This document shows, one piece after another, positions 1,165 to 58,257 of a stretch of DNA of 64,000 nt (position 1 is its first letter; each line of letters opens with the position of its first letter). The stretch is from the IMG/VR virus record IMGVR_UViG_3300028586_000764. One strand, given 5' to 3'. Made by a program: the position numbers and the translations under genes. The stretch comes from a virus (lineage: Duplodnaviria > Heunggongvirae > Uroviricota > Caudoviricetes). Below the pieces are notes generated by a model. The model did no database searches. It was not told the DNA's origin and saw only the letters and a program-made list of their open reading frames with translations.

Positions 1165-1277
1165 TTTCAAACTCCGTGAGAATAATCCAAGTGTAGGGAT
1201 AGCGTTTAGCAGTGCGGCACCCCTTGTACGTCGACATCCAGTAACGTGCAGCCATGTTTCGAGCATTACCGTTCTTT

Positions 1278-1320
1278 GCTACACCTCATAGGAAAGAACA
1301 ACTTTTTTAAAAGGACACAA
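1278..1320 (+). promoter_or_regulatory. variant of recurrent upstream element (GCTACAC-N5-AGGAAAGAACAAC, then AAGGACACAAC RBS) for the 1322 gene
   Basis: The sequence is ttGCTACACctcatAGGAAAGAACAACttttttaaAAGGACACAACATG. It belongs to the motif family described in the findings. Confidence 0.4.
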
Positions 1321-1321
1321 C

Positions 1322-2773
1322 ATGACTGAAACGATGGACGCGCCGGAAGCTCTTGGTTTTCGTATCGAAGGCGAGTATTTCACGTCGCTGATGCGCGACA
1401 TGGTTCGTGAAGGCCGGTGGCGAAAAGCCTATGACATCCTGATGGACGGCCTGGAGGGTATTGGTGCTGGCGCCGTGCTGGATGTCCTTCGCGGTGCAAA
1501 GAAGCTCGTTGGGGTCAACAACCTCGACCTGGCAAGCGACGACGCGGAGCCAACTATCAAGGCATGGCTGGACTATCAGTTCCGGAACTGTTTCTCGTTC
1601 CGAGGCCACCTTTACCGTCCCTACGGCTACGTAGGAGGTTCCCAACAAAAGGACTACACGCTGGCGCAGCAGATTTTCCGCGGCGAAGATGAGCAAATGA
1701 GGCGGAATCGGATGTGGCGAAAAGCTGATTCGGAACTGTCGGAGCAATCCCAAATCAAGAGCTTCAATCCGTGGAAAGAGAATTACGAGTCAGTGCTGCA
1801 GCATCGCCCTGCATACTATGCAAGCGACCGTAGCCGAGACATCTGTATTATGGTCAACCTGAGCCCGGGCGAATATCGCCCAGTGATGTGCGAAGAAGTG
1901 GAAGCTGACGTGCCGCTCTGGTATGTCATGCCGACAAAAGCTGCTGATGTCATCCGTCAGGCCCATGCGAACTATCCACTTCCGGACCTGTTCGACGGTA
2001 CGATGGACCCGCCGGCGCCGCCCCGTCCGAAACCACAGGTCTCCGAAGAGACTCGGCGAGCACGCGCTGCAGCTGAAGACGCTCGAGCACAGGAAGTACA
2101 GGAAGCCCAAGCTGCCCGTATTGCCCGAATGCGCGATGACGTCGTGGCGTTTGCGGATGCTGACAGCGAGTTTGGTTGGCTAGAGCTGTCTGCCTATGAC
2201 GACCAGGCAAAACGTAACGTCCAGCTACGTGTCCCACATCGCGCGTTCATTTGCGCTGCGCTGGACCGAGCCCAGGCACAGCACCTGATGCCCGAGTACG
2301 CGCCCCGGTGCCCCACTGGCTTGAAACTGATGAATGACGACCCATACCACTCGGACGCCTGGCTTGGCGCCGGCATGGAGGTGGAGACCGCATATAATCG
2401 CGAACTGCCGGAGCAGCGCCTGTTCATGGACAAGCTCTACGAGCTGCAGCGTAAGCGCCTGGGCTTTGCGTTTGACGTGCTGGCGCGCGGCAAGGAAGAT
2501 TACGTGACAGGCACCGTCATTCATGACCCTGAGCTGGCATCCGAGGAGTCCATTCTGGTCGTGAAAACCGCTGCGCCGGAATACGCTCCTGCAGCGGTCA
2601 AATGCAAGGCGGTCATTGTCGAAACCGGCTCCAAGCTGGCGCACCTGGTGGTGGTTAGCCGAGAAGAAGCCATCTCGGTAATTCGCACGGAAAACGCTGT
2701 CGAGAAATTCCCGCAAGGTCACCAGGTCAGCATCAACTTCTCCGCCGGCACGGTATCCTTGCTGGCGCGTTAA
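1322..2773 (+). CDS. hypothetical protein with C-terminal PEP-utilising-enzyme mobile (swivel) domain-like segment
   Basis: The ATG has an AAGGA RBS. The C-terminus AVIVETGSKLAHLVVVSREEAISVIRTENA...GHQVSINFSAGTV resembles the GGRTSHAAIIARE swivel-domain pattern. A terminator follows. Confidence 0.75.
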   Translation: MTETMDAPEALGFRIEGEYFTSLMRDMVREGRWRKAYDILMDGLEGIGAGAVLDVLRGAKKLVGVNNLDLASDDAEPTIKAWLDYQFRNCFSFRGHLYRPYGYVGGSQQKDYTLAQQIFRGEDEQMRRNRMWRKADSELSEQSQIKSFNPWKENYESVLQHRPAYYASDRSRDICIMVNLSPGEYRPVMCEEVEADVPLWYVMPTKAADVIRQAHANYPLPDLFDGTMDPPAPPRPKPQVSEETRRARAAAEDARAQEVQEAQAARIARMRDDVVAFADADSEFGWLELSAYDDQAKRNVQLRVPHRAFICAALDRAQAQHLMPEYAPRCPTGLKLMNDDPYHSDAWLGAGMEVETAYNRELPEQRLFMDKLYELQRKRLGFAFDVLARGKEDYVTGTVIHDPELASEESILVVKTAAPEYAPAAVKCKAVIVETGSKLAHLVVVSREEAISVIRTENAVEKFPQGHQVSINFSAGTVSLLAR

Positions 2774-2794
2774 GGACCAAAAGCTGTATTTTCA

Positions 2795-2818
2795 CTGCCC
2801 TCCTCGGAGGGCAGTTTT
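2795..2818 (+). terminator. rho-independent terminator
   Basis: The hairpin ctgccctcc-tcgg-ggagggcag is followed by TTTTC. Confidence 0.8.
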
Positions 2819-2845
2819 CATTCTAGCCGCCAGACTTGCGCAAAT

Positions 2846-2877
2846 GAAAAACCCGCCAGACTTGCGTCTGACGGGTT
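2846..2877 (-). terminator. rho-independent terminator of the flotillin operon
   Basis: The minus strand reads cccgtcagac-gcaa-gtctggcggg followed by TTTTT. Confidence 0.8.
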
Positions 2878-2917
2878 GGAATGGATTGGTGAGCCGTGTG
2901 GGCCTCACCTGTAGTGC

Positions 2918-4711: not shown

Positions 4712-5317
4712 TTAGGTGCCGAGTCGAGTGGCGATGTAGCCACCTGCAGTCGGTTCCAGTAACTTGACGGTTTCCCCTAGAGCGAAAGCTCCGTCGTCCG
4801 ACGGGCAAATCATCACGTAGTGGGTTTGACCGTGGCGGTCAGTGAATTTGGCTTCGCCAAAGAGTTGCTTGGTCGCGCAGGGGCTTAGCAGCTCCACTTC
4901 TTGACCAATGAACTCATGGGGCTCGAGTGCAGTGGTGTGAACCACTTTCCACTGCTTGAACGACTTGGCAATCATTCGCAACAGGACGACTGCGCCAGCG
5001 ATTGCGAGCAGCAGGGCCACCACCAATGGCACACTGGTACCCGATGCGAGTTGCCCCACACCTTGCACAGCGACACCGGTGGCGCCAAAGCCGAGCAGCA
5101 ATAACGTGATTGCCGACGACAAGGGCATTTCGCGGATGAATAGCCAGTTCAGCACCGGAGAGTCTGGCAACGCACTGGTGTCGACTATTGAGTCGACCAG
5201 CGGGGATACTCCCGCACCGACCAACATCGATGCCAGGAGCTCGAACACACAAAAGCCGAGCATTGCGACCAGAACGCCAGAAAACACAGCCACGTCTGGG
5301 CTTAGAAAAAATTCCAT
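4712..5317 (-). CDS. yqiJ: NfeD-like membrane protein (YqiJ-like), upstream partner of the flotillin
   Basis: The 201-aa protein has several TM helices plus a C-terminal OB-like segment. It has the classic yqiJ-yqiK operon arrangement and an AGGAA RBS. Confidence 0.8.
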   Translation of the reverse strand: MEFFLSPDVAVFSGVLVAMLGFCVFELLASMLVGAGVSPLVDSIVDTSALPDSPVLNWLFIREMPLSSAITLLLLGFGATGVAVQGVGQLASGTSVPLVVALLLAIAGAVVLLRMIAKSFKQWKVVHTTALEPHEFIGQEVELLSPCATKQLFGEAKFTDRHGQTHYVMICPSDDGAFALGETVKLLEPTAGGYIATRLGT

Positions 5318-5373: not shown

Positions 5374-5396
5374 GTTGGCCTTCTCATACATGTAGC
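5374..5396 (-). promoter_or_regulatory. variant recurrent upstream element (GCTACAT-N5-AGAAGGCCAAC) for the yqiJK-like operon
   Basis: The coding strand reads ttGCTACATgtatgagAAGGCCAACagacg, about 60 nt upstream of the ATG. Confidence 0.35.
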
Positions 5397-5774: not shown

Positions 5775-6704
5775 TCATGCTGCTTGTCGTTCGCCTACGT
5801 CAGGCTCGAAGAACGAGAATCGCAACTGCGGCACCGTGAATCGGCTTTGCATGCGCTCTTCGACTTCATTGATGGCAAAAACTAATGCCAGGTCCGACGG
5901 CATACGTCGCATTTGCACCTTGAGCGCGACCATGATGTAGGTCACGTAATCCTGGGTAATCATGTTGATGACGTGCTCGACTTCCGGCTGGGATTCGACG
6001 AAAGCGCGAATTTCCGCTTCGAGTACCGGATTAACGGACTCGCCGGCGTTCATACTTTTCACTTCCAACACCACCAGCATCGCGACCACGCACAGCAGCA
6101 CACCTACGCCTATGGTGCCGAGGGCATCGAACACCGGGTTGCCGGTGATGGCCGTCGCCACAAGAGCGAGAAGCGCTATAGCCAGGCCAGCAAGGGCCGC
6201 CACGTCTTCGCTTACGCAAACCAGCAGTGTTGACTGGCGCGTACTACGGAACCATTGCCAGAGTGTCTGAGTGCCACGTTCTTTTGCGGCCGCACGAAGC
6301 GCACCACGAAGAGCGTAACCTTCAGCTGCGACAGCAACAGCCAGTACGACAATCGAGTAGCCCAGGTATTTCACGGGTTCAGGATGCTTGAGCGCTTCCC
6401 AGCCGTGGTGGATAGAGAAGGCGCCGCCTACGCTGAAAAGTAGGAGTGCGACCATCAGCGCCCAGAAGTGCGCGTCACGGCCAAAGCCCATGGGGTGAGC
6501 CTTGGTAGGTGCTTTGCGAGCTTGTTTGATGCCGATGAGCAGTAACACCTGATTGCCGCAGTCAGCAAAGCTATGCAGCGACTCTGCCAGCAGCGAGCTG
6601 CTGCCGGTCATGACGGCCGCGACAGTTTTTGCCACAGCGATGCCGAGGTTAGCGCCAAGCGCAGTCAGAATTGGTTTCAGGGAATTGCCTGAGCTAAGGT
6701 CCAT
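5775..6704 (-). CDS. cation diffusion facilitator (CDF) family metal efflux transporter
   Basis: The 309-aa protein has 6 TM segments, an HSFADCGNQ motif and a C-terminal cytoplasmic domain. Confidence 0.9.
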   Translation of the reverse strand: MDLSSGNSLKPILTALGANLGIAVAKTVAAVMTGSSSLLAESLHSFADCGNQVLLLIGIKQARKAPTKAHPMGFGRDAHFWALMVALLLFSVGGAFSIHHGWEALKHPEPVKYLGYSIVVLAVAVAAEGYALRGALRAAAKERGTQTLWQWFRSTRQSTLLVCVSEDVAALAGLAIALLALVATAITGNPVFDALGTIGVGVLLCVVAMLVVLEVKSMNAGESVNPVLEAEIRAFVESQPEVEHVINMITQDYVTYIMVALKVQMRRMPSDLALVFAINEVEERMQSRFTVPQLRFSFFEPDVGERQAA

Positions 6705-6710
6705 GTAGGA

Positions 6711-6732
6711 GTTGTCCTGGAGATAATAGAGC
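6711..6732 (-). promoter_or_regulatory. recurrent upstream element (CTCTATTAT-N4-AGGACAAC) next to the CDF start
   Basis: The coding strand reads gctCTATTATctccAGGACAACtcctacATG. Confidence 0.4.
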
Positions 6733-6804
6733 TACGTGTAGCGAAGTGCGATTACAAAGAAAAACGCCTCAACCGAAGTTGAGGCGTTGAAATATGGTGC
6801 GAGA

Positions 6805-7926
6805 TTATGCAGCCTTGGCCGTTTCCTCGATAGGGCGCCAGATACGCCACTTTGCGGGGAAGCCGTTAATGCCCTGGGTCAGGAGAACATCCAGCCAGTC
6901 GACGCCCTTCTCACCTTCCGGAATCGGACCGGTTGGCAGATAGATTTCGACAATCTTACCTTCTGCTTCGAGTCGTTCAGCAAGCTTTTCAGCTGCCTGC
7001 AGACCACGCTTGCTGACGTCCAAGTCGGCCCAGATGACGACACGTTTGACGCTATCCGGGATGTGCACCTGCTCGAGCAGCACTGCCGACACACACGACC
7101 AGACTGGCATGCGAGAGATTGCGTGTGCCGCCAGGGCGGTTTCGATACCTTCGGCCAGGCCCAGCGTTTCACCCGCCTGGAACAGCTTGATGGCTGCGCC
7201 GCGCAGCTCACCACAGCGGCTCATCATCTTCTTGGCATCCGGAACCGGAGCCTTGGCGCCTTCCGGCGTCAGGAAGATGCGATGGATGGAGACGATACGA
7301 CCGTCTTTGTCCTTGATGGGGGCCAGAAGACACGGGAATTTTCCGTAGTTCTTCTTCTCCTTACCATGCATGTAAGTCAGGCCTTCGTGCGAGCGCAGTG
7401 TCTTAGGCATGTTATCTTTCCAGATGCCACGCGATGCCAGGTAGGACTCCGCGGCCGAACCCTTCAGGTCTTTGGACGTGGTCCAGACCTTGCGGATGCG
7501 GTCGTAAGCTCCGGCGAAGTCCACTGGCGGTGCGACGACGGTAACAGGCTTTCGAGGCACGGGAGCAGGAACACTGCTCTCGCCATCCAGCCAGGCTGCA
7601 ACTTCACGGATGGCATCTTTGATGTCATAGCCGCGAATCCAGGCCAGCATGCCAAAACCGCTTGGCTGAGCGCCGCACGAGTTGCAAATACCGCCGCCAG
7701 ACTCCGGATAGTCCTTAAACAGCCGAAAGCCGTTGCCGGTCTTGCCGCCATGGATGGGACAGGTTACGTGGTGTGGAGCCTTGGCCATCGCTTCGGACAG
7801 CTCGGGGGCCAGGTCTTCGAAGATGTACGGCCACTTTCCCGCTGCGTCTGCACGCAGCTGCGGAAAGGGCTTGTATTGCTTGTATGTTGAGGTTGGTTGG
7901 GTCACGGTGCGTCCGTTTCTAAACAA
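6805..7926 (-). CDS. DNA primase (CHC2 zinc finger + Toprim domains), phage/plasmid type, no helicase domain
   Basis: The zinc finger is CPIHGGKTGNGFRLF...GGGICNSCG. Toprim-like LGLAEGIETALAA and VVIWADLD follow. The TTG start is tentative. Confidence 0.8.
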   Translation of the reverse strand: MFRNGRTVTQPTSTYKQYKPFPQLRADAAGKWPYIFEDLAPELSEAMAKAPHHVTCPIHGGKTGNGFRLFKDYPESGGGICNSCGAQPSGFGMLAWIRGYDIKDAIREVAAWLDGESSVPAPVPRKPVTVVAPPVDFAGAYDRIRKVWTTSKDLKGSAAESYLASRGIWKDNMPKTLRSHEGLTYMHGKEKKNYGKFPCLLAPIKDKDGRIVSIHRIFLTPEGAKAPVPDAKKMMSRCGELRGAAIKLFQAGETLGLAEGIETALAAHAISRMPVWSCVSAVLLEQVHIPDSVKRVVIWADLDVSKRGLQAAEKLAERLEAEGKIVEIYLPTGPIPEGEKGVDWLDVLLTQGINGFPAKWRIWRPIEETAKAA

Positions 7927-7950
7927 GTTGTCCTACCGTATATAGAAACC
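7927..7950 (-). promoter_or_regulatory. recurrent upstream element (GGTTTCTATATAC-N3-AGGACAAC) for primase
   Basis: The coding strand reads gcGGTTTCTATATACggtAGGACAACttg. It shares GGTTTCTATAC with the element at 58156-58190. Confidence 0.45.
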
Positions 7951-8019: not shown

Positions 8020-8454
8020 ATGACAAGGCATGTCTTCCCTATGCATACTTTAAAATCGTACACACAGCCGGTTAAGCGCCGCTGCACCTTCAAAACTTTC
8101 TGGGTCGGCTTCACCGACTGGTATGCTGCGCGATGCGCGCCAGGAGGCGCCTCTCGTGAACACGACAAACCCAAAGCTAACCGGGGCCTGCAGACAATGC
8201 TGCTCGTTGGCCTGCTTGTAGGTGCGCCGGCCGTGGCAGCGCTCATTGGGCCCATGGCGGCCGGTACGATGAGTGCGATGGGCACTAGCGCCGTCGCGGC
8301 CGGCACACAGGTGCTCTCCGTGATTATCGGGCTAGGCTTCTTTATTGGCCTGCCGGCATGGGCCGGCTATCGAACCTACCAATTCTGCCGCTCCATGTGC
8401 GACCGCGGCCAAGATATCCTGGACGGGCGCCGCACGCGAGTGCGGTTGCTATAA
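8020..8454 (+). CDS. hypothetical small membrane protein (start uncertain)
   Basis: Two hydrophobic helices are present (LLVGLLVGAPAVAALIG and VLSVIIGLGFFIGLPAWAGY). There is no clear RBS and there is a competing minus-strand ORF. Confidence 0.25.
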   Translation: MTRHVFPMHTLKSYTQPVKRRCTFKTFWVGFTDWYAARCAPGGASREHDKPKANRGLQTMLLVGLLVGAPAVAALIGPMAAGTMSAMGTSAVAAGTQVLSVIIGLGFFIGLPAWAGYRTYQFCRSMCDRGQDILDGRRTRVRLL

Positions 8455-8488
8455 GACCCAGGTCAACTACATTTTTCCTGGTGCAACC

Positions 8489-9568: not shown

Positions 9569-9581
9569 ATTTTTTAGCATT

Positions 9582-9613
9582 TTATACTTAAATGTGTTAT
9601 ACTTTTTAAATCA
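9582..9613 (+). promoter_or_regulatory. AT-rich promoter-like element with duplicated TTATACTT and 23-nt block shared with 27978-28000
   Basis: The sequence is tTTATACTTaaatgtgTTATACTTTTTAAATCA. It lies 20-50 nt upstream of the 9633 ATG. Confidence 0.5.
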
Positions 9614-12291: not shown

Positions 12292-12624
12292 TTAAGCATG
12301 CTCGGGTGCCTCCGTTGGCACTCGCACCAAGGCGCTCCCTACGGAGGTGGCCAACTGTACTTCACCGTTGCTGCGCACGAATTTGAGCGATGTGCCCATA
12401 TCAATGGCCTTCGGGTCGCCAAATAACTCGGCACTGACGTCCTGCAGTCGCAATGGGAATTGCTCTACCGGGATGCCATGTCCTGACAGTTCTCGGAACA
12501 GAACGAGCACAGAACGTGTTGCGGCCAAATGCAGCGGTTGGTTGCCAACCCACAATTCATGTGAGGCTCCGCATACCGCTGCCATAGGAGGTTCAGCTAC
12601 TGGGGAAGCAGCAAGATTTACCAT
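12292..12624 (-). CDS. hypothetical protein (110 aa)
   Basis: There is an AAGGA RBS 7 nt from the ATG at 12624 and a terminator downstream. Confidence 0.6.
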   Translation of the reverse strand: MVNLAASPVAEPPMAAVCGASHELWVGNQPLHLAATRSVLVLFRELSGHGIPVEQFPLRLQDVSAELFGDPKAIDMGTSLKFVRSNGEVQLATSVGSALVRVPTEAPEHA

Positions 12625-12639: not shown

Positions 12640-12663
12640 GTTGTCCTTTCTCATATAGATAGA
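12640..12663 (-). promoter_or_regulatory. recurrent upstream element (TCTATATG-N4-AGGACAAC)
   Basis: The coding strand reads tctaTCTATATGagaaAGGACAACtttAAGGAaatatcgATG. Confidence 0.45.
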
Positions 12664-14724: not shown

Positions 14725-14758
14725 GTTGGCCTGTTGGCAAATAGCATGAGGTATAGCC
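14725..14758 (-). promoter_or_regulatory. recurrent upstream element (GGCTATAC-N18-AGGCCAAC)
   Basis: The coding strand reads ttGGCTATACctcatgctatttgccaacAGGCCAACatGAGAGGAAAcgcATG. Confidence 0.45.
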
Positions 14759-18436: not shown

Positions 18437-18455
18437 GAAAAATTCCTTTTCTGTT

Positions 18456-18477
18456 AATGGTCTCATGCGGTATAGCC
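18456..18477 (-). promoter_or_regulatory. recurrent upstream element (GGCTATAC-N6-AGACCATT)
   Basis: The coding strand reads gtGGCTATACcgcatgAGACCATTaacagAAAAGGAAtttttcATG. Confidence 0.45.
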
Positions 18478-18607
18478 ACCCACACAAGTCGCACAGGTAG
18501 CCATTAAACCACGTTTTAGATGGGTTACTCAATTTATCGATTGGAACGTAGCATTTGTATCTGTTACACTGCGCTACGTTATAGACAATTTCCTTGTGGA
18601 CACTTTC

Positions 18608-19284: not shown

Positions 19285-19330
19285 GGCTATACGAGGCAGT
19301 AGGACACAAATTCAACCCCCGTAGGACACA
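19285..19330 (+). promoter_or_regulatory. recurrent upstream element (GGCTATAC-N8-AGGACACA ... AGGACACA) for rIIA
   Basis: The sequence is gtGGCTATACgaggcagtAGGACACAaattcaacccccgtAGGACACAgacaatATG. Confidence 0.5.
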
Positions 19331-21838: not shown

Positions 21839-21858
21839 CGAAACTACCGCAATTCTTC

Positions 21859-21952: not shown

Positions 21953-21994
21953 GCTATAGGTTAAGCGGGACTGTACTGGCCCCGCTAGGCACAT
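21953..21994 (+). promoter_or_regulatory. variant upstream element (GCTATAG ... AGGCACAT) for rIIB
   Basis: The sequence is ttGCTATAGgttaagcgggactgtactggccccgctAGGCACATttcAAGGAGaagaatcaATG. Confidence 0.35.
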
Positions 21995-25334: not shown

Positions 25335-25362
25335 GCTATACCGGGAGGACCGCGGACTATAC
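25335..25362 (+). promoter_or_regulatory. recurrent upstream element (GCTATAC-N4-AGGACCGC, then CTATAC)
   Basis: The sequence is cacGCTATACcgggAGGACCGCggaCTATACgtcg, about 50 nt upstream of 25413. Confidence 0.4.
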
Positions 25363-27838: not shown

Positions 27839-27872
27839 GTGTCCTGTGAAACAAATGCATGCGGCGTATAGG
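27839..27872 (-). promoter_or_regulatory. recurrent upstream element (GCCTATAC-N20-AGGACACC)
   Basis: The coding strand reads gtgCCTATACgccgcatgcatttgtttcacAGGACACCaaATG. Confidence 0.4.
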
Positions 27873-29339: not shown

Positions 29340-29380
29340 GTTGTCCTGCGTGCGTATAGCCAACCTGCGAGGGTAGTCAA
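29340..29380 (-). promoter_or_regulatory. sigma70-like promoter carrying the recurrent element (TTGACT-N16-TATACG ... AGGACAAC)
   Basis: The coding strand reads TTGACTaccctcgcaggttgGCTATACgcacgcAGGACAACtacttatttacGAGGaaattcATG. Confidence 0.55.
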
Positions 29381-31719: not shown

Positions 31720-31739
31720 GCTATAGGTGAGAGGACATG
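31720..31739 (+). promoter_or_regulatory. recurrent upstream element (GCTATAG-N5-AGGACATG) for DNA polymerase
   Basis: The sequence is ctaGCTATAGgtgagAGGACATGgg, about 55 nt upstream of 31793. Confidence 0.45.
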
Positions 31740-38050: not shown

Positions 38051-38070
38051 GTTGTCCTGACTCGTATAGC
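38051..38070 (-). promoter_or_regulatory. recurrent upstream element (GCTATAC-N5-AGGACAAC)
   Basis: The coding strand reads gcgCTATACgagtcAGGACAACttgaAAGGAcacaaagctATG. Confidence 0.5.
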
Positions 38071-39032: not shown

Positions 39033-39053
39033 ATTGACCAGCCATGTATAGCA
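39033..39053 (-). promoter_or_regulatory. recurrent upstream element (TGCTATAC-N5-TGGTCAAT)
   Basis: The coding strand reads ttGCTATACatggcTGGTCAATtacaattttcAAGAGGtcaccATG. Confidence 0.45.
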
Positions 39054-40605: not shown

Positions 40606-40736
40606 GGTTCTTCCAGCGTCGATGCGCCGGCTCCTAGTAAGTGGGCCGAAGCCAATGTTTAATGTCCTATGTCCTGTAGCGAAACGCAATGGTTGAACAA
40701 TCCCTATATGAGTTTTAGGTCATCTAGGAGTTGTTC

Positions 40737-42960: not shown

Positions 42961-42980
42961 GCTATACGAAATAAGGAAAC
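42961..42980 (+). promoter_or_regulatory. recurrent upstream element (GCTATAC-N5-AAGGAAAC)
   Basis: The sequence is ttGCTATACgaaatAAGGAAACcactctacagaagaacaatATG. Confidence 0.4.
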
Positions 42981-44377: not shown

Positions 44378-44397
44378 ATTGTCCTATTCAGGATAGC
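44378..44397 (-). promoter_or_regulatory. recurrent upstream element (GCTATCC-N5-AGGACAAT)
   Basis: The coding strand reads tcGCTATCCtgaatAGGACAATcacatttacGGAGaacagcATG. Confidence 0.5.
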
Positions 44398-45135: not shown

Positions 45136-45380
45136 GTGGATTCTCCAAATATGCGCGAGGCACATGGTTCAAGTGGAGCTGCCTTTGCCAGATTTGATGT
45201 GCCTCGCGTACATTTGCGAGGGTTCAAAAGGTGGGTACTACCCGCATTCAACATATTCGATTTCTCGAACGGCAGCGATAGGCTGCGGTGGCCTGAACAT
45301 CGTGTAGGTAACGCATCGGTGTGCCAGCTTGCGGCACTGCTGGCTATACCCGCCAAGGACCACTACTTAAAGGAGCGAGC

Positions 45381-46016: not shown

Positions 46017-46120
46017 GTGACTCGTCACAAGAAATCATGCCCACGGTTGAATATCGGAAGCCGGCTGCAAATAATATGGGGCGCTACACCTGGCCAGACA
46101 AGAGAACAGGAGCGCTACTG

Positions 46121-48323: not shown

Positions 48324-48389
48324 GAGTCTTTCCTTTCACAATCGCGAAGGTTCCGAGCTCCCAATACGTATTGGGTCCGGAATGCGGTG

Positions 48390-50724: not shown

Positions 50725-50816
50725 CCCGCAGTTACCCGCGACGCATGTCAGAGTAGGCTACTCTCGACGGAACGAGAGGTTTCCCTAACCAAAAAGATGG
50801 CCTGAAACAATTGCAA

Positions 50817-50961: not shown

Positions 50962-50984
50962 GGTGGCCTAGAACACGTATAGCG
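50962..50984 (-). promoter_or_regulatory. recurrent upstream element (CGCTATAC-N7-AGGCCACC), minus orientation
   Basis: The coding strand reads ctgCGCTATACgtgttctAGGCCACCtgacc. Confidence 0.4.
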
Positions 50985-51050: not shown

Positions 51051-51671
51051 ATGAGCAAAACATCACAAGGCATTCCGGCATATCCGGCCACCATGACATT
51101 TACGTTACCGGACAGCTCTATCGTCGAGTTCCCTGTGGAGTGGACTCCTTGTGGAACCTTGTTCTACCAGCTTTCTGCGGCAGAGTTCCAGTCCAAGGTA
51201 GGCGCGCGGATGGAAGCGCTTGGCGAAGAACTCGTGAGCGCGCGTGTCACATTGAACGAAGACCCAAGTGTTCTCGCGGAGATAGACTTAAACCCCAAAT
51301 GGGGCCTAGTGCCCGTAGGAGACGCCTTAGCCCAGTGGGCTCGCAAAATGCATCCAGAAGACTGTGCTTACCTCGATGAGGTGCTCTATCCTGCTACGTT
51401 ACTCTGGAGGATGCCGGATGGTGGCCTTTTGCGTATGCCAGCCCAATGGGTCAACACAGGCGAAGTCCGCCCGCGTCCAAAGAATCGGCTTCTATCAGAG
51501 CTGATGAAGGCTCGGTGGGCACTCGAACCCGGTGCGACTGGTTTTGCACACATCATCCTGCGTGCTGACCCTACCATCGTCGCTGCCGTCAAAATTAGCG
51601 AAGACAATGAAGTCATGGCGCCATCACTGGCCTTCGAGACTTGGGTTTCCAAGAACCCTAAGCCTGACTGA
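51051..51671 (+). CDS. hypothetical protein (206 aa)
   Basis: There is an AAAGGA RBS and a terminator downstream. Confidence 0.7.
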   Translation: MSKTSQGIPAYPATMTFTLPDSSIVEFPVEWTPCGTLFYQLSAAEFQSKVGARMEALGEELVSARVTLNEDPSVLAEIDLNPKWGLVPVGDALAQWARKMHPEDCAYLDEVLYPATLLWRMPDGGLLRMPAQWVNTGEVRPRPKNRLLSELMKARWALEPGATGFAHIILRADPTIVAAVKISEDNEVMAPSLAFETWVSKNPKPD

Positions 51672-54308: not shown

Positions 54309-54337
54309 TTGGCAAATGCTTATCGCTGTGCTATAAT
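54309..54337 (+). promoter_or_regulatory. canonical sigma70 promoter (TTGGCA-N17-TATAAT) for the TerD gene
   Basis: The sequence is TTGGCAaatgcttatcgctgtgcTATAAT. It contrasts with the GCTATAC-type elements elsewhere. Confidence 0.6.
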
Positions 54338-54413: not shown

Positions 54414-54989
54414 ATGGCAATCAGTCTGCAAAAAGGCGGCAACGTCAACCTGAGCAAAGAGGCCCCTGGCCTGACCAAACTGACCATCGGCCTCGGCTGG
54501 GACCCGCGCCCGACCGATGGTGCCGCCTTCGACCTGGACGCTTCGGTTTTCGTGCAAAATGCTTCGGGCAAAGTTCGCAGCGACGCCGACTTCATCTTCT
54601 ACAACAACCTCAAATCGGCCGACGGCTCGATTATCCACAACGGGGACAACCGTGACGGCGGCGCCGTCGGCGACGACGAAACCGTCAGCATCGACCTGAG
54701 CAAGGTTCCGGCTGACGTCGACAAGCTGTCGTTCTGCGTTACCATCCACGAAGCAACCGCCCGTAAGCAAAACTTCGGTGGCGTTCCAAAGGCGCACGTG
54801 CGAGCTATCAACGGTGACACGAACGTCGAAGTTGCTCGTTACGACCTGTCGGAAGATAGCTCGACCGAAACTGCGATGATTTTCGGAGAACTGTACCGTA
54901 ACGGCGCAGACTGGAAATTCAAAGCCGTCGGCCAAGGCTTCAATGGCGGCCTGGGCCCGCTGGCACGTTCGTTCGGCGTCAACGTCTGA
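54414..54989 (+). CDS. terD: TerD-family stress protein (TerD/TerE/TerZ-like)
   Basis: There is an [38 protein letters not shown]...FDLDASVF...GDNRDG is typical of TerD. Confidence 0.9.
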
Positions 54990-55089
54990 GCAACTAAGCG
55001 CCCGCGCTAACCAATGCCGGCTAGCATCTGCTAAGCCGGCATTTTCCTATTTAAGGCCCTGCGTCCAACTCACACTTAACGGTTAAATC

Positions 55090-56394
55090 ATGCGACAAAT
55101 CAATCGCGGCGAACGCCTCAAATTGCAAGACCTGCTTCGTGGAGGGAACCGATTCAACATCGTAGTAAATGCCTTCGGTCCCGGCCTGACGCTTGATTTC
55201 GCATGTTTCGGAATCGACGCATCGGGAAAGCTGTCTGACGACAGATATATGACCTTCTTCAATCAACCGACGTCGCCCTGTGGTGGCGTGTCCCTGGCAA
55301 GCGGGAATCAGTTCGCCTTTGACCTGGACCGTATTCCTGCCGGTATCGACCGGCTGGTGCTCACTGCTGCGTTGGACGGCCCAGGTACAATGGGTAAGCT
55401 CAATGCCAGCAGCATTGTGCTAAAAGAAGCCGGCCAAGACGTTGGGCGATTCAATTTTTCCGGAACCGATTTTCAAGAAGAGCGCGCGCTAATGCTTATT
55501 GAAATTTACCGCAAGGACGGTAAATGGCGAATGAGCGCAACAGCACAAGGCTTCAACGGTGGCCTTGACGCGCTGGTACGTCACTTCGGTGGCGAAGTGT
55601 CAGATTCGGGCCCAGGCCCTGCAGCCCCGCCGGTGCCGGCGTCCAATAGCGTCAACCTAACAAAGCGCATTGCACTGGAAAAGCGTATGGCGACAGAAGC
55701 CCCTCAGCTCCTGAGCCTCACAAAGAGTGCAAACGTCTCGCTGGAGAAAGTTGGGCTTGGAACGCATAAAGCTCGATTCTGCGCGGTTTTCGACATCTCG
55801 TGGTCGATGGAAGACCTCTACGACACAGGTGAAGTTCAGGCATTTGCTGAGCGCGCGCTGGCGATGGGGTGTCGATTCGATGATGACGGCGAAATGGACA
55901 TCTTCCTGTTTGGTGCGAATGTTCACCAAGTGATGACCATGAACATCGGCAATTATAAGGTCCACTTGCGTACAGTGCTCAAACAAGTAGGCATGGAGGG
56001 GGACACCCAATACGGGAAGGCGGTCCAAGCGATTCGACGTTTCTACTTCCCGGAGAACGACGGGTCGGAGGAGCCGAAGAAAGCTCGAGCGGACACTCCG
56101 GTATACGTTGTGTTCCAAACCGATGGTGACACGGCACGTAAAGATTTCACCGAACGGCAGATTCGTGCGTCGAGCTATGAACCAATCTACTGGCAGTTTG
56201 TCGGCCTGGGCAGGGACCGAAATTTCAGCTTTCTCCGAAAACTCGACGACCTGAAAGGTCGTTTGCTGGACAATACGGGCTTCTTCGAGGTGAGCAATGT
56301 GTCTGGCTACTCAGACGACGTCTTCTTCGATAAGATGGTCGCAGAGTACTCGCAGTGGGTGATTCAGGCCAAGCACAAGGGCCTAATCGTTTAA
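55090..56394 (+). CDS. TerD-domain protein with C-terminal von Willebrand factor A (vWA) domain (TerF-like)
   Basis: The N-terminal TerD-like segment includes GERLKLQDLL...FNIVVNAFG...FDLD. The C-terminal vWA-like region is FCAVFDISWSM...DIFLFG...VFQTDGDT. Confidence 0.75.
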   Translation: MRQINRGERLKLQDLLRGGNRFNIVVNAFGPGLTLDFACFGIDASGKLSDDRYMTFFNQPTSPCGGVSLASGNQFAFDLDRIPAGIDRLVLTAALDGPGTMGKLNASSIVLKEAGQDVGRFNFSGTDFQEERALMLIEIYRKDGKWRMSATAQGFNGGLDALVRHFGGEVSDSGPGPAAPPVPASNSVNLTKRIALEKRMATEAPQLLSLTKSANVSLEKVGLGTHKARFCAVFDISWSMEDLYDTGEVQAFAERALAMGCRFDDDGEMDIFLFGANVHQVMTMNIGNYKVHLRTVLKQVGMEGDTQYGKAVQAIRRFYFPENDGSEEPKKARADTPVYVVFQTDGDTARKDFTERQIRASSYEPIYWQFVGLGRDRNFSFLRKLDDLKGRLLDNTGFFEVSNVSGYSDDVFFDKMVAEYSQWVIQAKHKGLIV

Positions 56395-56515: not shown

Positions 56516-56995
56516 TCAAGTGACGACTAGCAGCTCTCCATTCGGATGGCGCATCAGGCCCACGCGGCAGCCAGAGTACGCACGCTGCGGGCACGTCGGA
56601 GTAACCTTGATGAGTCCACTGCCGTCATGCGCCAACCACACCGAACGATTGGCTGTGTGCGGACGCACCAGCAGAACGAACGTCGTAGGCTTGGCCTGTG
56701 CTTCTTCCTTGCGCATAACTTCATCGAGCAACATAGCGTCGGCCAGTTTGCCAAGGACAGGCGCCGGTTTCGGAGGGCGAAGCTCCTTGGCGATTGCCAG
56801 GGTGCCTGCAAAGGCCATCAAAGGAAATACTATCTTCGCACCGAGAGCGCCGCCCGTGAAGTCGAGAACGATGCCAATCAGGCTAGCCAGCGCCAAGGCA
56901 AAGGACAGTGGCCGCGGCCAATATACGCACATCACGAGGCTGAGCGCTGCAAGTGCAATCCAGGTGAAACCAATGACAAGAGAAAGTTCGGGCAT
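56516..56995 (-). CDS. hypothetical membrane protein (159 aa)
   Basis: There are three N-terminal hydrophobic helices and no clear SD. Confidence 0.45.
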   Translation of the reverse strand: MPELSLVIGFTWIALAALSLVMCVYWPRPLSFALALASLIGIVLDFTGGALGAKIVFPLMAFAGTLAIAKELRPPKPAPVLGKLADAMLLDEVMRKEEAQAKPTTFVLLVRPHTANRSVWLAHDGSGLIKVTPTCPQRAYSGCRVGLMRHPNGELLVVT

Positions 56996-57246
56996 GTGAC
57001 AGAGAGAGTGATTGATTCGAGAAAGATTTGCCCTCCTCGCCGTCGACCACAGCGTCCCTGTGCAGGGCTAATGTTAGCCCCTAAAATGTAATAACCTTGT
57101 ATGGCAGGATTGGCAACACATTATAGCCTCACCTTGTGCAAAAAATACAATACTTTAAGTGAAAAATTGATAATTATTTTTTTAGCTAGTTTCCTATGGG
57201 ACTTGACGTTCTAAAATGGAGGTCACCCCTATAGCAACCCCCTCTA

Positions 57247-57284
57247 TAAAAAACCCGGCTGCAAGAGCAACCGGGTGAAAAAAG
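57247..57284 (-). terminator. rho-independent terminator
   Basis: The minus strand reads acccgg-ttgctcttgcag-ccgggt followed by TTTTTT. Confidence 0.75.
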
Positions 57285-57296
57285 AATGCGAAAGCG

Positions 57297-58139
57297 TTAT
57301 TTGTGGCGCACGTACATCGCGCTGCTGCCCTTGCGATATGGCGCCAGGTCGACGCCGGCCAGGTGGTCCTTGGTGACACGCTCCCAGTTCGTCGAGTTGC
57401 GCTCGGCAAATTCGACCGTATAGAAGTCGCCTTCTTGTGGGAGACCAACCACCTTTTTCTTGATGGCGTCAGTGCGCGCGTTCTGCTCGCTCTCGAGAAG
57501 CTTGATGAGCTCGGCCATTTGGAGATGCTGAAGGACCAGGTCGTCCAGCGTAGCCGGCAGCGGCGCATCGATATTGAAAGGCAGCACACCGTTAAGCTGC
57601 TCGCGCAGGCCACGCACTTCGTGCATGAGCTTCGGATATACCGCGGCGAGCATCTCGCAGTCGATAAGCGCGCCGTGCAGGGTACGCTTGGAGCGGTCAA
57701 CGCTGTAGCGGTCGCACAGCGCATCCAGGGTGTGTACTTTGGCACGCACGTGTCGGCGCGATTGAGCCAGCGTATCGGTCAGCGCGCCAACAGTCTTGAC
57801 GAGCGACTTGCGTTTGGCGCTTTTGAGCTCGGCTTCCAGGAAGCCTACGTCGAACGGCGCGTTGTGGATGACCACGTGTGCACCTTCGACGAATGTCAGC
57901 AGGTCGTCGGCGATGTCGGCAAACAGCGGTGCGTCTTTCAGGTCTTCCAGCGACTTGCCGTGGACGGCAGTCGCTTCGGCCGGCACTTCACGTTCCGGAT
58001 TGAGGAGCGTGTAGTACGTGTTGCCTGTCGGAAGGCCGGACTCTGGGTCGAATTCGATTGCTGCGATTTCGATAAGACGGTGAATTCCTGGTCCGATGCC
58101 GGTGGTTTCGGTGTCCAGTGCGATATGCTTCTGGGTCAT
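57297..58139 (-). CDS. DnaQ-like DEDDh 3'-5' exonuclease (DNA pol III epsilon-like) with C-terminal extension
   Basis: The exonuclease motifs are IALDTETTG, VIHNAPFDVGFL and HGALIDCEMLAAVY. The start is at MTQKHIALD with an AAGGA RBS. Confidence 0.85.
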   Translation of the reverse strand: MTQKHIALDTETTGIGPGIHRLIEIAAIEFDPESGLPTGNTYYTLLNPEREVPAEATAVHGKSLEDLKDAPLFADIADDLLTFVEGAHVVIHNAPFDVGFLEAELKSAKRKSLVKTVGALTDTLAQSRRHVRAKVHTLDALCDRYSVDRSKRTLHGALIDCEMLAAVYPKLMHEVRGLREQLNGVLPFNIDAPLPATLDDLVLQHLQMAELIKLLESEQNARTDAIKKKVVGLPQEGDFYTVEFAERNSTNWERVTKDHLAGVDLAPYRKGSSAMYVRHK

Positions 58140-58155
58140 TGTTATGTTCCTTGAT

Positions 58156-58190
58156 GTTGTCCTAGGTGATGCAGCTTTGTATAGAAACCC
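58156..58190 (-). promoter_or_regulatory. recurrent upstream element (GGTTTCTATAC-N15-AGGACAAC)
   Basis: The coding strand reads cgGGTTTCTATACaaagctgcatcacctAGGACAACatcAAGGAacataacaATG. Confidence 0.5.
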
Positions 58191-58237
58191 GCCGCCCATA
58201 AAGTCTCGAGGGTTCCGCATCGCTTGTTCGACAACTC

Positions 58238-58257
58238 GCTATCCTTAGTAGGTCAAC
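58238..58257 (+). promoter_or_regulatory. recurrent upstream element (GCTATCC-N5-AGGTCAAC), divergent from 58156-58190
   Basis: The sequence is tcGCTATCCttagtAGGTCAACtatcAAGGAAtcccaATG. Confidence 0.5.

What the first reader, a model, noticed from the sequence alone, without database searches (positions are those of the whole stretch)
1197..58257. Recurrent bipartite upstream element GCTAYAC-N5-AGGNCAAY (core GGCTATAC...AGGACAAC) before at least 25 genes
The same roughly 20-nt architecture recurs in coding orientation 10-50 nt upstream of start codons on both strands. A GCTATAC-like box (GGCTATAC, TGCTATAC, CGCTATCC, GCTACAC, GCTATAG, or GGTTTCTATAC in two cases) is followed, usually after exactly 5-6 nt, by AGGACAAC. 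Variants of the second box are AGGTCAAT/C, AGGCCAAC, AGGACACA and AGACCATT. Approximate instances are 1197, 1278, 5374, 6711, 7927, 12640, 13853, 14414, 14725, 18456, 19285, 21953, 25335, 27839, 29340, 31720, 38051, 38095, 39033, 42961, 44378, 50962, 51017, 58156 and 58238. The exact 8-mer GTTGTCCT occurs six times on the + strand (6711, 7927, 12640, 29340, 38051, 58156). In each case it sits immediately upstream of a minus-strand gene start, and I found only one intragenic AGGACAAC (about 22935). One copy (29340-29380) has a perfect TTGACT -35 box 16 nt upstream of TATACG, so the first box probably acts as a -10-like element. Most copies lack any -35 box. The host-like TerD gene instead carries a textbook TTGGCA-N17-TATAAT promoter. 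The conserved second box would then be the +1/initial transcribed region, or a 5'-leader/translation element. This looks like an element-specific promoter class, for example phage middle/late promoters read by a phage-modified or phage-encoded RNA polymerase or sigma factor.
Basis: seen in the sequence. Interest (0 to 1): 0.85.

Follow-up and report, generated by a model that had tools for sequence, protein, structure and literature searches.

The report
Giant-plasmid-specific compact promoter motif
A short two-part DNA signal (TnGCTAYAC, five bases, AGGNCAAC) sits about 37 bases before the start of dozens of genes here; it is most likely a private promoter type of a family of giant (0.8-1.5 Mb) bacterial plasmids rather than of a phage, and what reads it is unknown.

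Summary
GCTATAC occurs 13 times (2.5 expected) and the bipartite pattern 13 times (0.8 expected). Every strong copy is intergenic and points at a gene that starts 30-50 nt downstream.

The element is not a phage. The window is collinear with the ~816-kb conjugative, tRNA-array-bearing megaplasmid of Variovorax sp. WDL1 (NZ_LR594690.1), and closer relatives lie on 0.85-1.46 Mb metagenomic contigs. In that complete plasmid, an unbiased word count ranks the same words first upstream of genes (CTATAC 71 of 136 copies in 3.3% of the search space). The logo is TnGCTAyACG-N4-AGGnmmAC, with no -35 signal. The motif is nearly absent from 150 kb of recently acquired DNA and from a sampled 50 kb of another megaplasmid of the same host. 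It recurs on a 47% GC Agitococcus contig.

Terminators ending 1-28 nt upstream and back-to-back divergent copies leave no room for another promoter. Box 1 equals the first seven bases of the sigma-S -10 consensus KCTAYRC, but T at -7 is avoided.

No sigma factor or RNA polymerase gene was found. Best reading: a -35-independent, element-specific promoter class, with transcription starting in box 2. The specificity factor is unidentified.

The parts
1278..1297 (+). motif copy GCTACAC-ctcat-AGGAAAGA, 44 nt before the ATG of gene 1322-2773
   Evidence: (16.7 bits)
5374..5396 (-). weak copy GCTACAT-N8-AGGCCAAC, 79 nt before gene 4712-5317
6711..6742 (-). GCTACAC (6742-6736), a second box-1-like GCTCTAT, and AGGACAAC (6718-6711), before gene 5775-6704; a terminator-like hairpin plus T-run lies just upstream
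7927..7946 (-). TCTATAT-acggt-AGGACAAC before the primase gene 6805-7905; the ortholog in the Variovorax plasmid has GCTATAG-aagtc-AGGTCAAC
8448..8467 (+).
12640..12659 (-). TCTATAT-gagaa-AGGACAAC before gene 12292-12624; conserved in L026 and L027
12808..12827 (+).
   Evidence: 20.3 bits
13853..13872 (-). GCTATAC-cttgc-AGGTCAAT before the NUDIX gene 13381-13833; conserved in L026
   Evidence: (21.7 bits)
14751..14757 (-). box 1 GCTATAC, 47 nt before gene 14483-14710; the box-2-like AGGCCAAC is displaced (14732-14725)
18456..18476 (-). GCTATAC-cgcat-GAGACCAT before the ATG at 18437 of the RNase_T-like exonuclease; this gene-specific box 2 variant is kept in L026, L027 and the Variovorax plasmid
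19286..19308 (+). GCTATAC-N8-AGGACACA before the rIIA-like gene 19337-21838
21953..21959 (+). box 1 GCTATAG before the rIIB-like gene 22012-23151; conserved in L026, L027 and the Variovorax plasmid
25335..25353 (+). GCTATAC-cggg-AGGACCGC, 78 nt before gene 25413-26768
27866..27872 (-). box 1 CCTATAC, 38 nt before gene 27190-27834; gtgCCTATACg is identical in L026, L027 and the Variovorax plasmid while the upstream sequence diverges
29340..29360 (-). GCTATAC-gcacgc-AGGACAAC before gene 28575-29318; the only copy with a TTGACT -35-like box (29375-29380)
31720..31739 (+). GCTATAG-gtgag-AGGACATG, 73 nt before the family A DNA polymerase gene 31793-35149; followed by a conserved leader hairpin
38051..38070 (-). 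consensus copy GCTATAC-gagtc-AGGACAAC before gene 37769-38032; back-to-back with the next copy, 24 nt apart
   Evidence: 22.4 bits
38095..38101 (+). box 1 GCTATAC, 38 nt before gene 38133-38420; divergent partner of 38070
39033..39052 (-). GCTATAC-atggc-TGGTCAAT before gene 38688-39011
40661..40680 (-).
40703..40724 (+). CCTATAT-N7-AGGTCATC before gene 40737-41114; divergent partner of 40680, 22 nt apart
42961..42980 (+). GCTATAC-gaaat-AAGGAAAC before gene 43000-43776 (65% identical to a Variovorax plasmid protein whose gene is preceded by GCTATAC-ggccc-AGGAACAT)
44378..44397 (-). GCTATCC-tgaat-AGGACAAT before gene 43909-44358
45343..45363 (+).
46083..46103 (+). GCTACAC-ctggcc-AGACAAGA before gene 46121-46696
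50962..50983 (-). GCTATAC-N7-AGGCCACC; a group II intron follows about 25-30 nt downstream, so the copy is far from any start codon
51017..51036 (+). GCTATAC-gtgca-AGGTCATT before gene 51051-51671; divergent partner of 50983, 33 nt apart
58156..58185 (-). TCTATAC (58185-58179) and AGGACAAC (58163-58156) with a 15-nt gap, before the exonuclease gene 57297-58139
58238..58257 (+). GCTATCC-ttagt-AGGTCAAC before gene 58273-58620
54309..54337 (+). contrast case, not the motif: sigma-70-type promoter TTGGCA-N17-TATAAT before TerD (54415-54989)
9575..9604 (+). contrast case: sigma-70-type promoter TTAGCA-N18-(TGt)TATACT before gene 9633-10688; its ortholog in the Variovorax plasmid has TTGACG-N17-TAAAAT

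Best explanation
The element is the core promoter of most backbone transcription units of a giant conjugative plasmid. It is compact (about 22 bp), asymmetric and needs no -35 box.

Proposed mechanism (inferred):
- Box 1 (T-n-G/C-C-T-A-Y-A-C-G/C) occupies the extended -10 position, about -16 to -7.
- The unconserved 4-5 nt form the discriminator.
- Box 2 (A-G-G-n-C/A-A/C-A-C) spans the transcription start, which probably falls on one of its purines. This gives unstructured, G-poor leaders of about 20-25 nt that carry the ribosome-binding site.
- The class is private to one family of elements: the Variovorax 'tRNA-carrying megaplasmids' and metagenomic relatives of up to 1.46 Mb. It is separate from the sigma-70-type promoters that drive a minority of genes on the same DNA.
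- It is probably read by the host's multisubunit RNA polymerase through a specificity factor other than the housekeeping sigma. That factor could be a host sigma-S-like sigma or an unrecognised plasmid protein.

Shown here: enrichment, orientation, fixed position, conservation, element specificity, separation from the sigma-70 class, and lack of room for another promoter.

Inferred: that transcription starts there, the exact start site, and who reads it.
For: 1. Enrichment and geometry in the window.

2. Genome-wide test in the complete relative NZ_LR594690.1 (816 kb).
- The top sense-upstream words are CTATAC (71 of 136, p = 6e-67), GCTACAC (48 of 97), CTATACG (43 of 75) and AGGACAA (38 of 110).
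- The distance from box 1 to the start codon peaks sharply at 30-50 nt, with a tail to 200 nt.
- The logo from 186 sites gives T(-2) in 123 of 186, G7, G10 and A12-G13-G14..A18. No position from -50 to -3 exceeds 0.14 bits.

3. Element specificity.
- There are 1-4 sites per 50 kb in the IS1071-flanked acquired region, against 5-40 in the backbone at equal gene density.
- The sampled 50 kb of another megaplasmid of the same host has 3 weak hits.
- The motif is present in relatives with 47-65% GC.

4. Two promoter classes with co-varying features.

5. No room for another promoter.
- A terminator-like hairpin plus T-run lies within 90 nt upstream of 36 of 186 sites (control 2), and 18 of these end 28 nt or less from box 1.
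- Divergent box-1 pairs lie 12-33 nt apart (window pairs).

6. Ortholog footprint: 35% identity upstream of box 1, 80% across box 1 to box 2, and 62% in the leader.

7. Copies work at variable distance from the start codon: DNA polymerase 73 nt, gene 39592-40605 75 nt, and one copy in front of a group II intron.

8. Leaders are unstructured.
Against: - No transcription start data exist for any member, so promoter function is inferred.
- No sigma or RNA polymerase gene was found in the complete relative or in the 75 kb. An element-encoded reader is therefore unsupported, and a host factor would have to tolerate G/C at -7.
- The 40-tRNA array of the relative has no strong copy upstream. The one test that could have separated transcription from translation was uninformative.
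- My gene calls for the relative are home-made (7 of 7 spot checks matched the public annotation).
- The host chromosome could not be scanned.
- The other megaplasmid of the same host was sampled over only 50 of its 566 kb.
Confidence: 0.75

Rival explanations
1. The copies are ordinary host sigma-S (RpoS) promoters. The plasmid backbone is wired to the host's stationary-phase sigma factor, and no element-encoded factor exists.
For: - Box 1 GCTAYAC equals the first seven positions of the sigma-S -10 consensus KCTAYRCTTAA, including the diagnostic C at -13.
- Sigma-S promoters typically lack a -35 consensus (PMC5650638; CTATACT in Pseudomonas, PMC11784136).
- No sigma gene is found on the plasmid.
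- Sigma-S is conserved across Proteobacteria. That would explain conservation of the motif across hosts of different GC content.
Against: - The position equivalent to -7 is T in only 10 of 186 sites of the relative, and in the window only in the GCTATCC variants. G or C is preferred.
- TAA at -6 to -4 is absent.
- A conserved T lies at -16 rather than -15.
- Box 2 has no counterpart in sigma-S promoters.
- The sampled 50 kb of another megaplasmid of the same host and the 150 kb of acquired DNA almost lack the motif.
Confidence: 0.25
2. Phage promoters: middle or late promoters of a large phage, read by a phage-encoded or phage-modified RNA polymerase or sigma factor.
For: - The window carries phage-like genes: rIIA and rIIB homologs, a family A DNA polymerase with an intein-like insert, a T5orf172-domain protein and exonucleases.
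- The best rIIA match among phage records is a 595-kb uncultured phage, at 36% identity over 41% of the protein.
Against: - There is collinear synteny with a conjugative megaplasmid of a cultured Variovorax strain. That plasmid has partition, replication-initiator, conjugation and pilus genes and no virion genes (PMC7313664).
- No phage structural gene is present in the 75 kb.
- There is no DNA match to 50,697 phage records.
- No RNA polymerase or sigma gene was found.
Confidence: 0.03
3. The motif is an RNA-level element of the 5' leader, such as a processing site or a translation or ribosome-standby signal. Its fixed distance to the start codon would reflect translation, not transcription.
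For: - The distance to the start codon is sharply peaked.
- Box 2 contains AGGA, a partial Shine-Dalgarno sequence, and in a few genes AGGACAC is the ribosome-binding site itself.
Against: - Terminators end 1-28 nt upstream of box 1, and divergent copies lie 12-33 nt apart. This leaves no upstream promoter to make such an RNA.
- Conservation stops abruptly at the 5' edge of box 1.
- Most copies have a separate ribosome-binding site closer to the ATG.
- Box 2 often reads AGGTCAA, which is not Shine-Dalgarno-like.
- Some copies lie 65-80 nt from the start codon, and one lies before a group II intron.
- The leaders have no structure.
Confidence: 0.07
4. The motif is the operator of a plasmid-encoded global regulator, in the way KorA and KorB act in IncP-1 plasmids. 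It overlaps weak host promoters rather than being the polymerase recognition sequence itself.
For: - There are hundreds of copies confined to the plasmid backbone.
- The relative carries many helix-turn-helix and WYL-domain regulators.
Against: - The motif is asymmetric and strictly oriented with the gene.
- Its position matches -10 and +1.
- No other promoter-like signal accompanies it.
- A -35 box is found only with the TATAAT-type variant, which lacks box 2.
Confidence: 0.08

Closest known systems
Sigma-S (RpoS) dependent promoters, -10 consensus KCTAYRCTTAA / CTATACT
   Same: - Seven consecutive positions are identical (G/T-C-T-A-Y-A-C).
- Both have the C at -13.
- Neither has a -35 consensus.
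- In both, a single extended -10 carries the specificity.
   Different: - T at -7 is avoided (5%) and replaced by G or C.
- There is no TAA at -6 to -4.
- The upstream T is at -16.
- There is an added conserved start-site box AGGnCAAC.
- The motif is confined to one plasmid family rather than to a stress regulon.
Phage T4 late promoters (TATAAATA, read through gp55, gp33 and the sliding clamp)
   Same: Works alike on paper: a single -10-region element without a -35 box defines a private promoter class on a large mobile genome that also carries rIIA and rIIB homologs.
   Different: - The sequence is different.
- T4 late promoters have no second box.
- No gp55-like protein was found among the proteins searched.
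- The element is a plasmid, so no temporal infection programme applies.
Extended -10 (TGnTATAAT) sigma-70 promoters, including the mapped RpoD promoters of the related bacterium Cupriavidus metallidurans
   Same: G at -14, T at -12, A at -11 and A at -9 line up. The same plasmids also contain true TGCTAAAAT and TGCTATAAT promoters (PMC9045368).
   Different: - The T is at -16, not -15.
- C-G or C-C replaces A-T at -8 and -7.
- The TATAAT-type copies have a -35 box in 42% of cases and never have box 2. The motif class has a -35 box in 4% and box 2 in 28%.
Single-subunit (T7-type) RNA polymerase promoters
   Same: The conserved span is about 22-23 bp and reaches into the initially transcribed bases. 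Variants such as GCTATAGG recall cACTATAGG.
   Different: - The motif is bipartite with an unconserved spacer.
- Nothing is conserved upstream of -16.
- No T7-like polymerase motif occurs in any of the 935 predicted proteins.
tRNA-carrying megaplasmids of linuron-degrading Variovorax (pWDL1-1, pPBL-H6-1, pSRS16-1, pPBL-E5-1; Ozturk et al. 2020, PMC7313664)
   Same: This is the genetic element family to which the window belongs. It shares a collinear replication block (RecD2-like helicase, YbaB, flap exonuclease, primase, ExbBD, exonuclease, rIIA and rIIB homologs, MscS, family A DNA polymerase) and the same motif upstream of orthologs.
   Different: - Protein identity is only 33-68%.
- The window has 57% GC against 62%.
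- The window adds TerD/TerF-like proteins, flotillin, a group II intron and an intein-like insert in the polymerase.
- The paper does not mention promoters (0 occurrences of the word).

Membership tests
Housekeeping sigma-70 promoter | -35 hexamer close to TTGACA, 16-18 bp upstream of the -10 | tested here: not met
   No position from -50 to -3 exceeds 0.14 bits in 186 sites. A -35 match is present in 4% of motif-class sites, against 8% background and 42% for TATAAT-type sites.
Housekeeping sigma-70 promoter | -10 hexamer with conserved A at -11 and T at -7 | tested here: not met
   A at -11 fits. The -7 position is G in 103, C in 48, A in 25 and T in 10 of 186 sites. Mapped RpoD promoters of a related bacterium keep the last T (PMC9045368).
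Sigma-S (RpoS) promoter | C at -13 with a CTAYRC core and no -35 requirement | tested here: met
   Box 1 is [G/C]CTAYAC and there is no -35 signal. Note that C, T, A and A of the core were fixed by the search pattern; Y at -10, C at -8 and G at -14 were free.
Sigma-S (RpoS) promoter | T at -7 followed by TAA (KCTAYRCTTAA) | tested here: not met
   T at -7 in 5% of sites. Positions -6 to -4 are unconserved except for a G.
Sigma-S (RpoS) promoter | Transcription depends on RpoS | not testable with these tools
   Needs an rpoS mutant or in vitro transcription.
Phage middle/late promoter class | Located on a phage genome with a temporal programme and virion genes | tested here: not met
   The window is collinear with a conjugative megaplasmid that has no virion genes. 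No phage structural genes occur in the 75 kb.
Phage middle/late promoter class | Cognate element-encoded sigma factor or RNA polymerase | tested here: inconclusive
A divergent factor cannot be excluded, and the rest of the source contig was not available.
T7-type single-subunit polymerase promoter | Contiguous conservation from about -17 to +6, and a single-subunit polymerase gene | tested here: not met
   The spacer is unconserved, nothing is conserved upstream of -16, and no T7-like motifs were found.
T4-type late promoter | TATAAATA at -10 and a gp55-like factor | tested here: not met
   The sequence differs. PHROGs searches of 20 window proteins gave no late-sigma family. Only part of the proteome was searched.
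Variovorax-type tRNA-carrying megaplasmid (the element, not the motif) | Shared backbone genes in conserved order | tested here: met
   39 of 89 proteins match, collinear with 704-736 kb of NZ_LR594690.1.
Variovorax-type tRNA-carrying megaplasmid (the element, not the motif) | repB-parAB module, tra genes and tRNA array on the same replicon | not tested
   Only 75 kb of the source replicon could be read. The 0.2-1 Mb contig that carries the window's proteins was not displayed.

The most novel reading that the evidence does not exclude
This family of giant plasmids (0.8-1.5 Mb, in hosts from 47 to 65% GC) runs a semi-orthogonal transcription system. A plasmid-encoded specificity factor with no detectable similarity to known sigma factors would redirect host RNA polymerase to a -35-less promoter, TnGCTAYAC-N5-AGGNCAAC. 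That promoter is kept unreadable by the housekeeping sigma through avoidance of T at -7. The plasmid would thereby control more than 200 of its own transcription units independently of the host, much as large phages do.
Probability: 0.3. Interest if true: 0.85.

Novelty: new variant of a known kind. Interest (0 to 1): 0.62.

Why it matters
- Megaplasmids are assumed to rely on host promoters. A private, highly regular promoter class covering a quarter or more of the genes of 0.8-1.5 Mb replicons would mean they insulate their gene expression from the host. It would also explain how one backbone can function in hosts of very different base composition.
- The motif is a cheap sequence marker for recognising fragments of this poorly catalogued plasmid family in metagenomes, where phage-like genes invite misclassification as huge phages.
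- A cultured carrier exists (Variovorax sp. WDL1), so the question of who reads the motif is directly testable.
- A compact 22-bp promoter with an unknown reader could also be useful as an orthogonal expression part.

Tried and rejected
- Exact-pattern scan of viral contigs for GCTATACNNNNNAGGACAAC gave 20 single chance hits, none related to the window.
- Near-identity DNA search against phage records found nothing.
- An rIIA-based scan of viral contigs gave one distant locus without the motif.
- A scan of species-representative genomes found only Variovorax WDL1 itself, an Agitococcus contig (motif present) and distant rIIA-like loci (motif absent).
No sigma or polymerase appears in the plasmid annotation, by phmmer or by catalytic motifs. 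Pfam and PHROGs searches of conserved unknown proteins were empty.
- The conserved 258-aa protein (43000-43776) has only a weak match to the hypothetical protein Atu1052 (E = 0.018).
- The 351-aa family-specific protein, which is driven by a sigma-70-type promoter in both elements, folds confidently (pLDDT 91.5). It is alpha/beta with no match among solved structures, so it is not sigma-like.
- Test for the motif in front of non-coding genes. The tRNA array has no strong copy, and the tmRNA region has only a weak CCTATAT copy, so the result is inconclusive.
- The sigma-54 -24/-12 pattern, the T7, T3 and SP6 promoters, and an RNA structure between the two boxes were considered and rejected on sequence grounds.

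Full report

Yes.
- AGGACAAC occurs 9 times in the window against 1.6 expected.
- GCTATAC occurs 13 times against 2.45 expected.
- The bipartite pattern GCTAYAC-N5-AGGNCAAY, with up to two mismatches, occurs 13 times against 0.79 expected.

I took gene calls from the public assemblies that contain exactly these proteins. I extended the sequence to 75 kb with their flanks.

A two-box scan with variable spacing then gave 17 distinct sites against 0.7 expected. All 17 are intergenic. All are co-oriented with a gene that starts 7-56 nt, mostly 13-22 nt, after box 2.

I also ran a word count that assumes nothing about the motif. It puts 12 of the 13 GCTATAC copies, 17 of 23 CTATAC and 20 of 46 AGGACA in the sense-oriented upstream 90 nt of genes. 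That region is 4% of the search space.

- GCTACAC, GCTAAAC, GCTAGAC, GCTATAG and CCTATAC behave in the same way.
- GCTANAC has 39 copies. Of these, 32 are intergenic and 26 lie within 80 nt of a co-oriented start.
- Box-1-like words precede 39 genes of the window, and about 22 of these also have a recognisable box 2.

- GTTGTCCT occurs 8 times on the + strand, not 6.
- There are 3 intragenic AGGACAAC, not 1.
- The instance at 14414 has no box 1.
- Six good copies were missed.
- The TerD promoter and the single TTGACT box are as described. One such -35 match appears in 6 of 100 shuffles, so it carries no weight.

**2. What the DNA is**

The window has no close DNA match among 50,697 phage records. 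Its proteins include:
- a family A DNA polymerase with an intein-like insert;
- rIIA and rIIB homologs;
- exonucleases and a primase;
- TerD/TerF-like proteins, flotillin and a group II intron.

The rIIA homolog has a graded series of relatives, from 90% down to 30% identity. Several lie on contigs of 0.85, 1.23 and 1.46 Mb with the same gene order.

The decisive hit came from the plasmid collection. Four Variovorax plasmids of about 800 kb carry the rIIA homolog at 40% identity. They have the same neighbourhood: RecD2-like helicase, YbaB, flap exonuclease, primase, ExbBD, exonuclease, rIIA and rIIB homologs, MscS and DNA polymerase.

I read the whole 816,468-bp record NZ_LR594690.1.
- It has two ParAB pairs, a RepB-family initiator, an F-type conjugation system, type IV pilus genes, RecA, topoisomerase IV, SecA, SmpB and a tmRNA.
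- It also has CRISPR-Cas I-E and a 40-tRNA array.
- It has no capsid, terminase, portal or tail gene.

This is the 'tRNA-carrying megaplasmid' group of Ozturk et al. 2020, a paper that never mentions promoters (PMC7313664).

39 of the 89 proteins of the window and its flanks match this plasmid, collinear with its 704-736 kb region. The window is therefore part of a related giant plasmid, not of a phage.

**3.

I called 846 genes; 7 of 7 spot checks equalled the public annotation. I then counted all 6-mers and 7-mers in 680 sense-oriented upstream regions, which make up 3.3% of the search space.

| Word | Copies upstream of genes | Total copies |
|---|---|---|
| CTATAC | 71 | 136 (p = 6e-67) |
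| GCTACAC | 48 | 97 |
| CTATACG | 43 | 75 |
| GCTATAC | 36 | 63 |
| CCTATAC | 30 | 58 |
| AGGACAA | 38 | 110 |

These are the top-ranked words.

The distance from the first base of box 1 to the start codon is sharply peaked. The 5-nt bins from 30 to 50 nt hold 42, 74, 30 and 25 sites, with a tail to 200 nt.

The logo of 186 sites is T(-2) n [G/C] C T A y A C G n n G n A G G n m m A c.
- T(-2) occurs in 123 of 186 sites and A12 in 117 of 186.
- G is strongly depleted after box 2.
- No position between -50 and -3 carries more than 0.14 bits.
- There is therefore no -35 element and no upstream element.

A matrix built only from these sites, applied back to the window, recovers 14 sites of at least 15 bits against 0.5 expected. 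All 14 are intergenic.

**4. The motif belongs to the element, not to the host**

- Inside the plasmid, the IS1071-flanked catabolic, IncP-1 and metal-resistance DNA (about 495-648 kb) has 4, 3 and 1 sites per 50 kb. The backbone has 5-40, at the same gene density.
- The sampled 50 kb of a different 566-kb megaplasmid of the same strain has three weak hits, none with box 2.
- The motif is present upstream of orthologous genes in relatives of 65% and 56% GC and 62% GC.
- It is also present on a 47% GC contig binned as Agitococcus, with ten hits of at least 13 bits in 21 kb.
- It is absent from more distant loci that merely contain an rIIA-like gene.
- Across five ortholog sets, identity to two relatives is 35% upstream of box 1, 80% from box 1 to box 2, and 62% in the leader.
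- Gene-specific variants of box 2, such as GAGACCAT before the exonuclease, are retained among orthologs.

**5. Promoter or something else?**

Several observations argue that box 1 is the promoter itself, rather than a leader element downstream of another promoter.
- A terminator-like hairpin with a T-run lies within 90 nt upstream of 36 of 186 sites, against 2 in a shifted control. 18 of these end 1-28 nt from box 1.
- Divergent copies stand back to back, 12 and 27 nt apart in the relative. In the window the gaps are 22, 24 and 33 nt (40680/40703, 38070/38095, 50983/51017).
- Conservation stops at the 5' edge of box 1.
- The motif tolerates long leaders: 73 nt with a conserved hairpin before the polymerase gene, and 75 nt before gene 39592-40605.
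- One copy is followed directly by a group II intron.
- Ordinary leaders are unstructured.

The 30-50 nt spacing to the start codon is what a start site in box 2 plus a leader of 20-25 nt would give. The test with non-coding genes was uninformative: the tRNA array has no strong copy upstream.

**6. Which polymerase?**

Sites that share the CTAnA core in the relative fall into two classes with co-varying features.

| Feature | SCTAnAAT (n = 24) | SCTAnAC[G/C] (n = 172) |
|---|---|---|
| Good -35 match (background 8%) | 42% | 4% |
| Box 2 at 6 of 7 positions or better (background 1%) | 0% | 28% |
| T at -2 | 4% | 65% |
| Median distance to start codon | 56 nt | 39 nt |

True sigma-70-type promoters precede recA, radA, the RecD-like helicase and other genes. 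In the window they precede TerD and gene 9633-10688.

If the T-A of box 1 is placed at -12 and -11, box 1 reads T(-16) n G(-14) C(-13) T A Y A C(-8) G/C(-7).
- The first seven bases of GCTAYAC equal the sigma-S consensus KCTAYRCTTAA.
- Sigma-S promoters also lack a -35 consensus (PMC5650638; PMC11784136).
- However, T at -7 is conserved in both sigma-70 and sigma-S promoters, including mapped RpoD promoters of a related Burkholderiales species (PMC9045368). Here it is present in only 5% of sites, below its 20% background.
- The TAA that follows in the sigma-S consensus is missing, and box 2 has no sigma-S counterpart.

I found no sigma-70-family protein and no polymerase catalytic motif among the 935 predicted proteins of the relative and the window. 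The public annotation names none either.

One attractive candidate led nowhere. It is a 351-aa protein restricted to this plasmid family and driven by a sigma-70-type promoter in both elements. It gives a confident alpha/beta model with no match among solved structures, so it is not sigma-like.

The reader of the motif is therefore unidentified. My split is:
- about 0.40 for an unrecognised plasmid-encoded factor acting on host polymerase;
- 0.25-0.30 for a host sigma-S-like sigma;
- about 0.10 for the housekeeping sigma;
- at most 0.05 for a plasmid-encoded polymerase.

**7. Comparison with known systems, and novelty**

- In function, the closest parallels are private -35-less promoter classes such as T4 late promoters.
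- In sequence, the closest is the sigma-S extended -10.
- It meets neither definition in full (see the membership rows).
- It is not a T7-type promoter.
- The element family is published, but I found no description of the motif in that paper or in three further full-text searches.

I rate it a new variant of a known kind: an element-specific promoter class found on giant plasmids rather than phages. The 'promoter class distinct from sigma-70' reading is supported indirectly. The phage frame is not supported.

**8. Limits**

- There are no transcription start data.
- The host chromosome was not available as a control.
- Only 50 kb of the second megaplasmid of the same host was sampled.
- Only 75 kb of the source replicon could be read.
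- Gene calls for the relative are my own.
- Box 1 core positions in the logo were fixed by the search pattern. Only the flanks, position 4, positions 6-7 and box 2 are free observations.

Noticed in passing
whole window; L026 (JGI 3300046810 Ga0495660_0000002, 1,229,481 nt), L027 (ENA ERZ27247436 k141_270024, 846,538 nt), P0008 (a 1,463,929-nt contig): The window belongs to a family of very large replicons. Closer relatives (62-68% rIIA identity, same gene order) sit on metagenomic contigs of 0.85-1.46 Mb, larger than the ~816-kb Variovorax megaplasmid examined here. Their phage-like genes could get them misfiled as huge phages.
   Followed up: partly
window 48389-~50930 (-): A group II intron is present, with Rfam domain matches at 48389-48466 and 50626-50779 and a reverse transcriptase/maturase/HNH ORF at 48464-50224. 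It begins about 25-30 nt downstream of the motif copy at 50983-50962, so it appears to lie in the leader of the glyoxalase-like gene 47637-48323. Short-read assemblies of this DNA break at the intron.
   Followed up: partly
window 31793-35149 (+): The family A DNA polymerase is 1118 aa, against 810 aa in the Variovorax plasmid. Residues of about 380-810 match intein or homing-endonuclease-bearing inserts of phage ribonucleotide reductases and NAMPT genes, so an intein is likely.
   Followed up: partly
window 31745-31765 (+); same place in L026 and L027: The polymerase leader contains an 8-bp hairpin, GGACGUGG-AUAU-ACGUCC (z = -2.2), conserved in two relatives. It may be a translational operator, as known for the T4 DNA polymerase mRNA. 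The rIIB leader also has a conserved GC-rich hairpin at about 21965-21985.
   Followed up: partly
window 9633-10688 (+): This 351-aa protein is found only in this plasmid family (23 homologs). Its AlphaFold model is confident (pLDDT 91.5) and no solved structure resembles it (best Foldseek E = 0.11). It is driven by a sigma-70-type promoter in both the window and the Variovorax plasmid, unlike its neighbours.
   Followed up: yes
window 17471-19093 (-): The public gene call of 540 aa is probably too long. A motif copy at 18476-18456 precedes an internal ATG at 18437, and relatives encode 311-322 aa exonucleases starting at the equivalent point.
   Followed up: partly
window 19337-23151 (+): Full-length homologs of the phage T4 rIIA and rIIB genes are conserved as a pair on conjugative megaplasmids. 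The Variovorax record annotates the rIIA homolog only as an 'ATP-binding protein'. Their role on a plasmid is unknown.
   Followed up: no
window 54415-56394 (+): TerD (54415-54989) and a TerD-vWA 'TerF-like' protein (55090-56394) lie together. TerD has a textbook sigma-70 promoter and a leader of about 70 nt. Neither gene has a homolog in the Variovorax plasmid, so they look like cargo.
   Followed up: partly
NZ_LR594690.1 368457-369363 (L039 18457-19363): The Variovorax megaplasmid encodes its own SmpB and a permuted tmRNA (tag ANESNFRLAA). It also has 40 tRNAs, two aminoacyl-tRNA synthetases, a peptidyl-tRNA hydrolase and a release-factor-like protein, which is an unusually complete translation-support set for a plasmid.
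   Followed up: partly
window 36321-36670 (+ strand copy at 36373): A GCTACAC copy lies in a 350-nt gene-free gap with no co-oriented gene for 1.7 kb. It could drive an uncalled small gene or a non-coding RNA.
   Followed up: no
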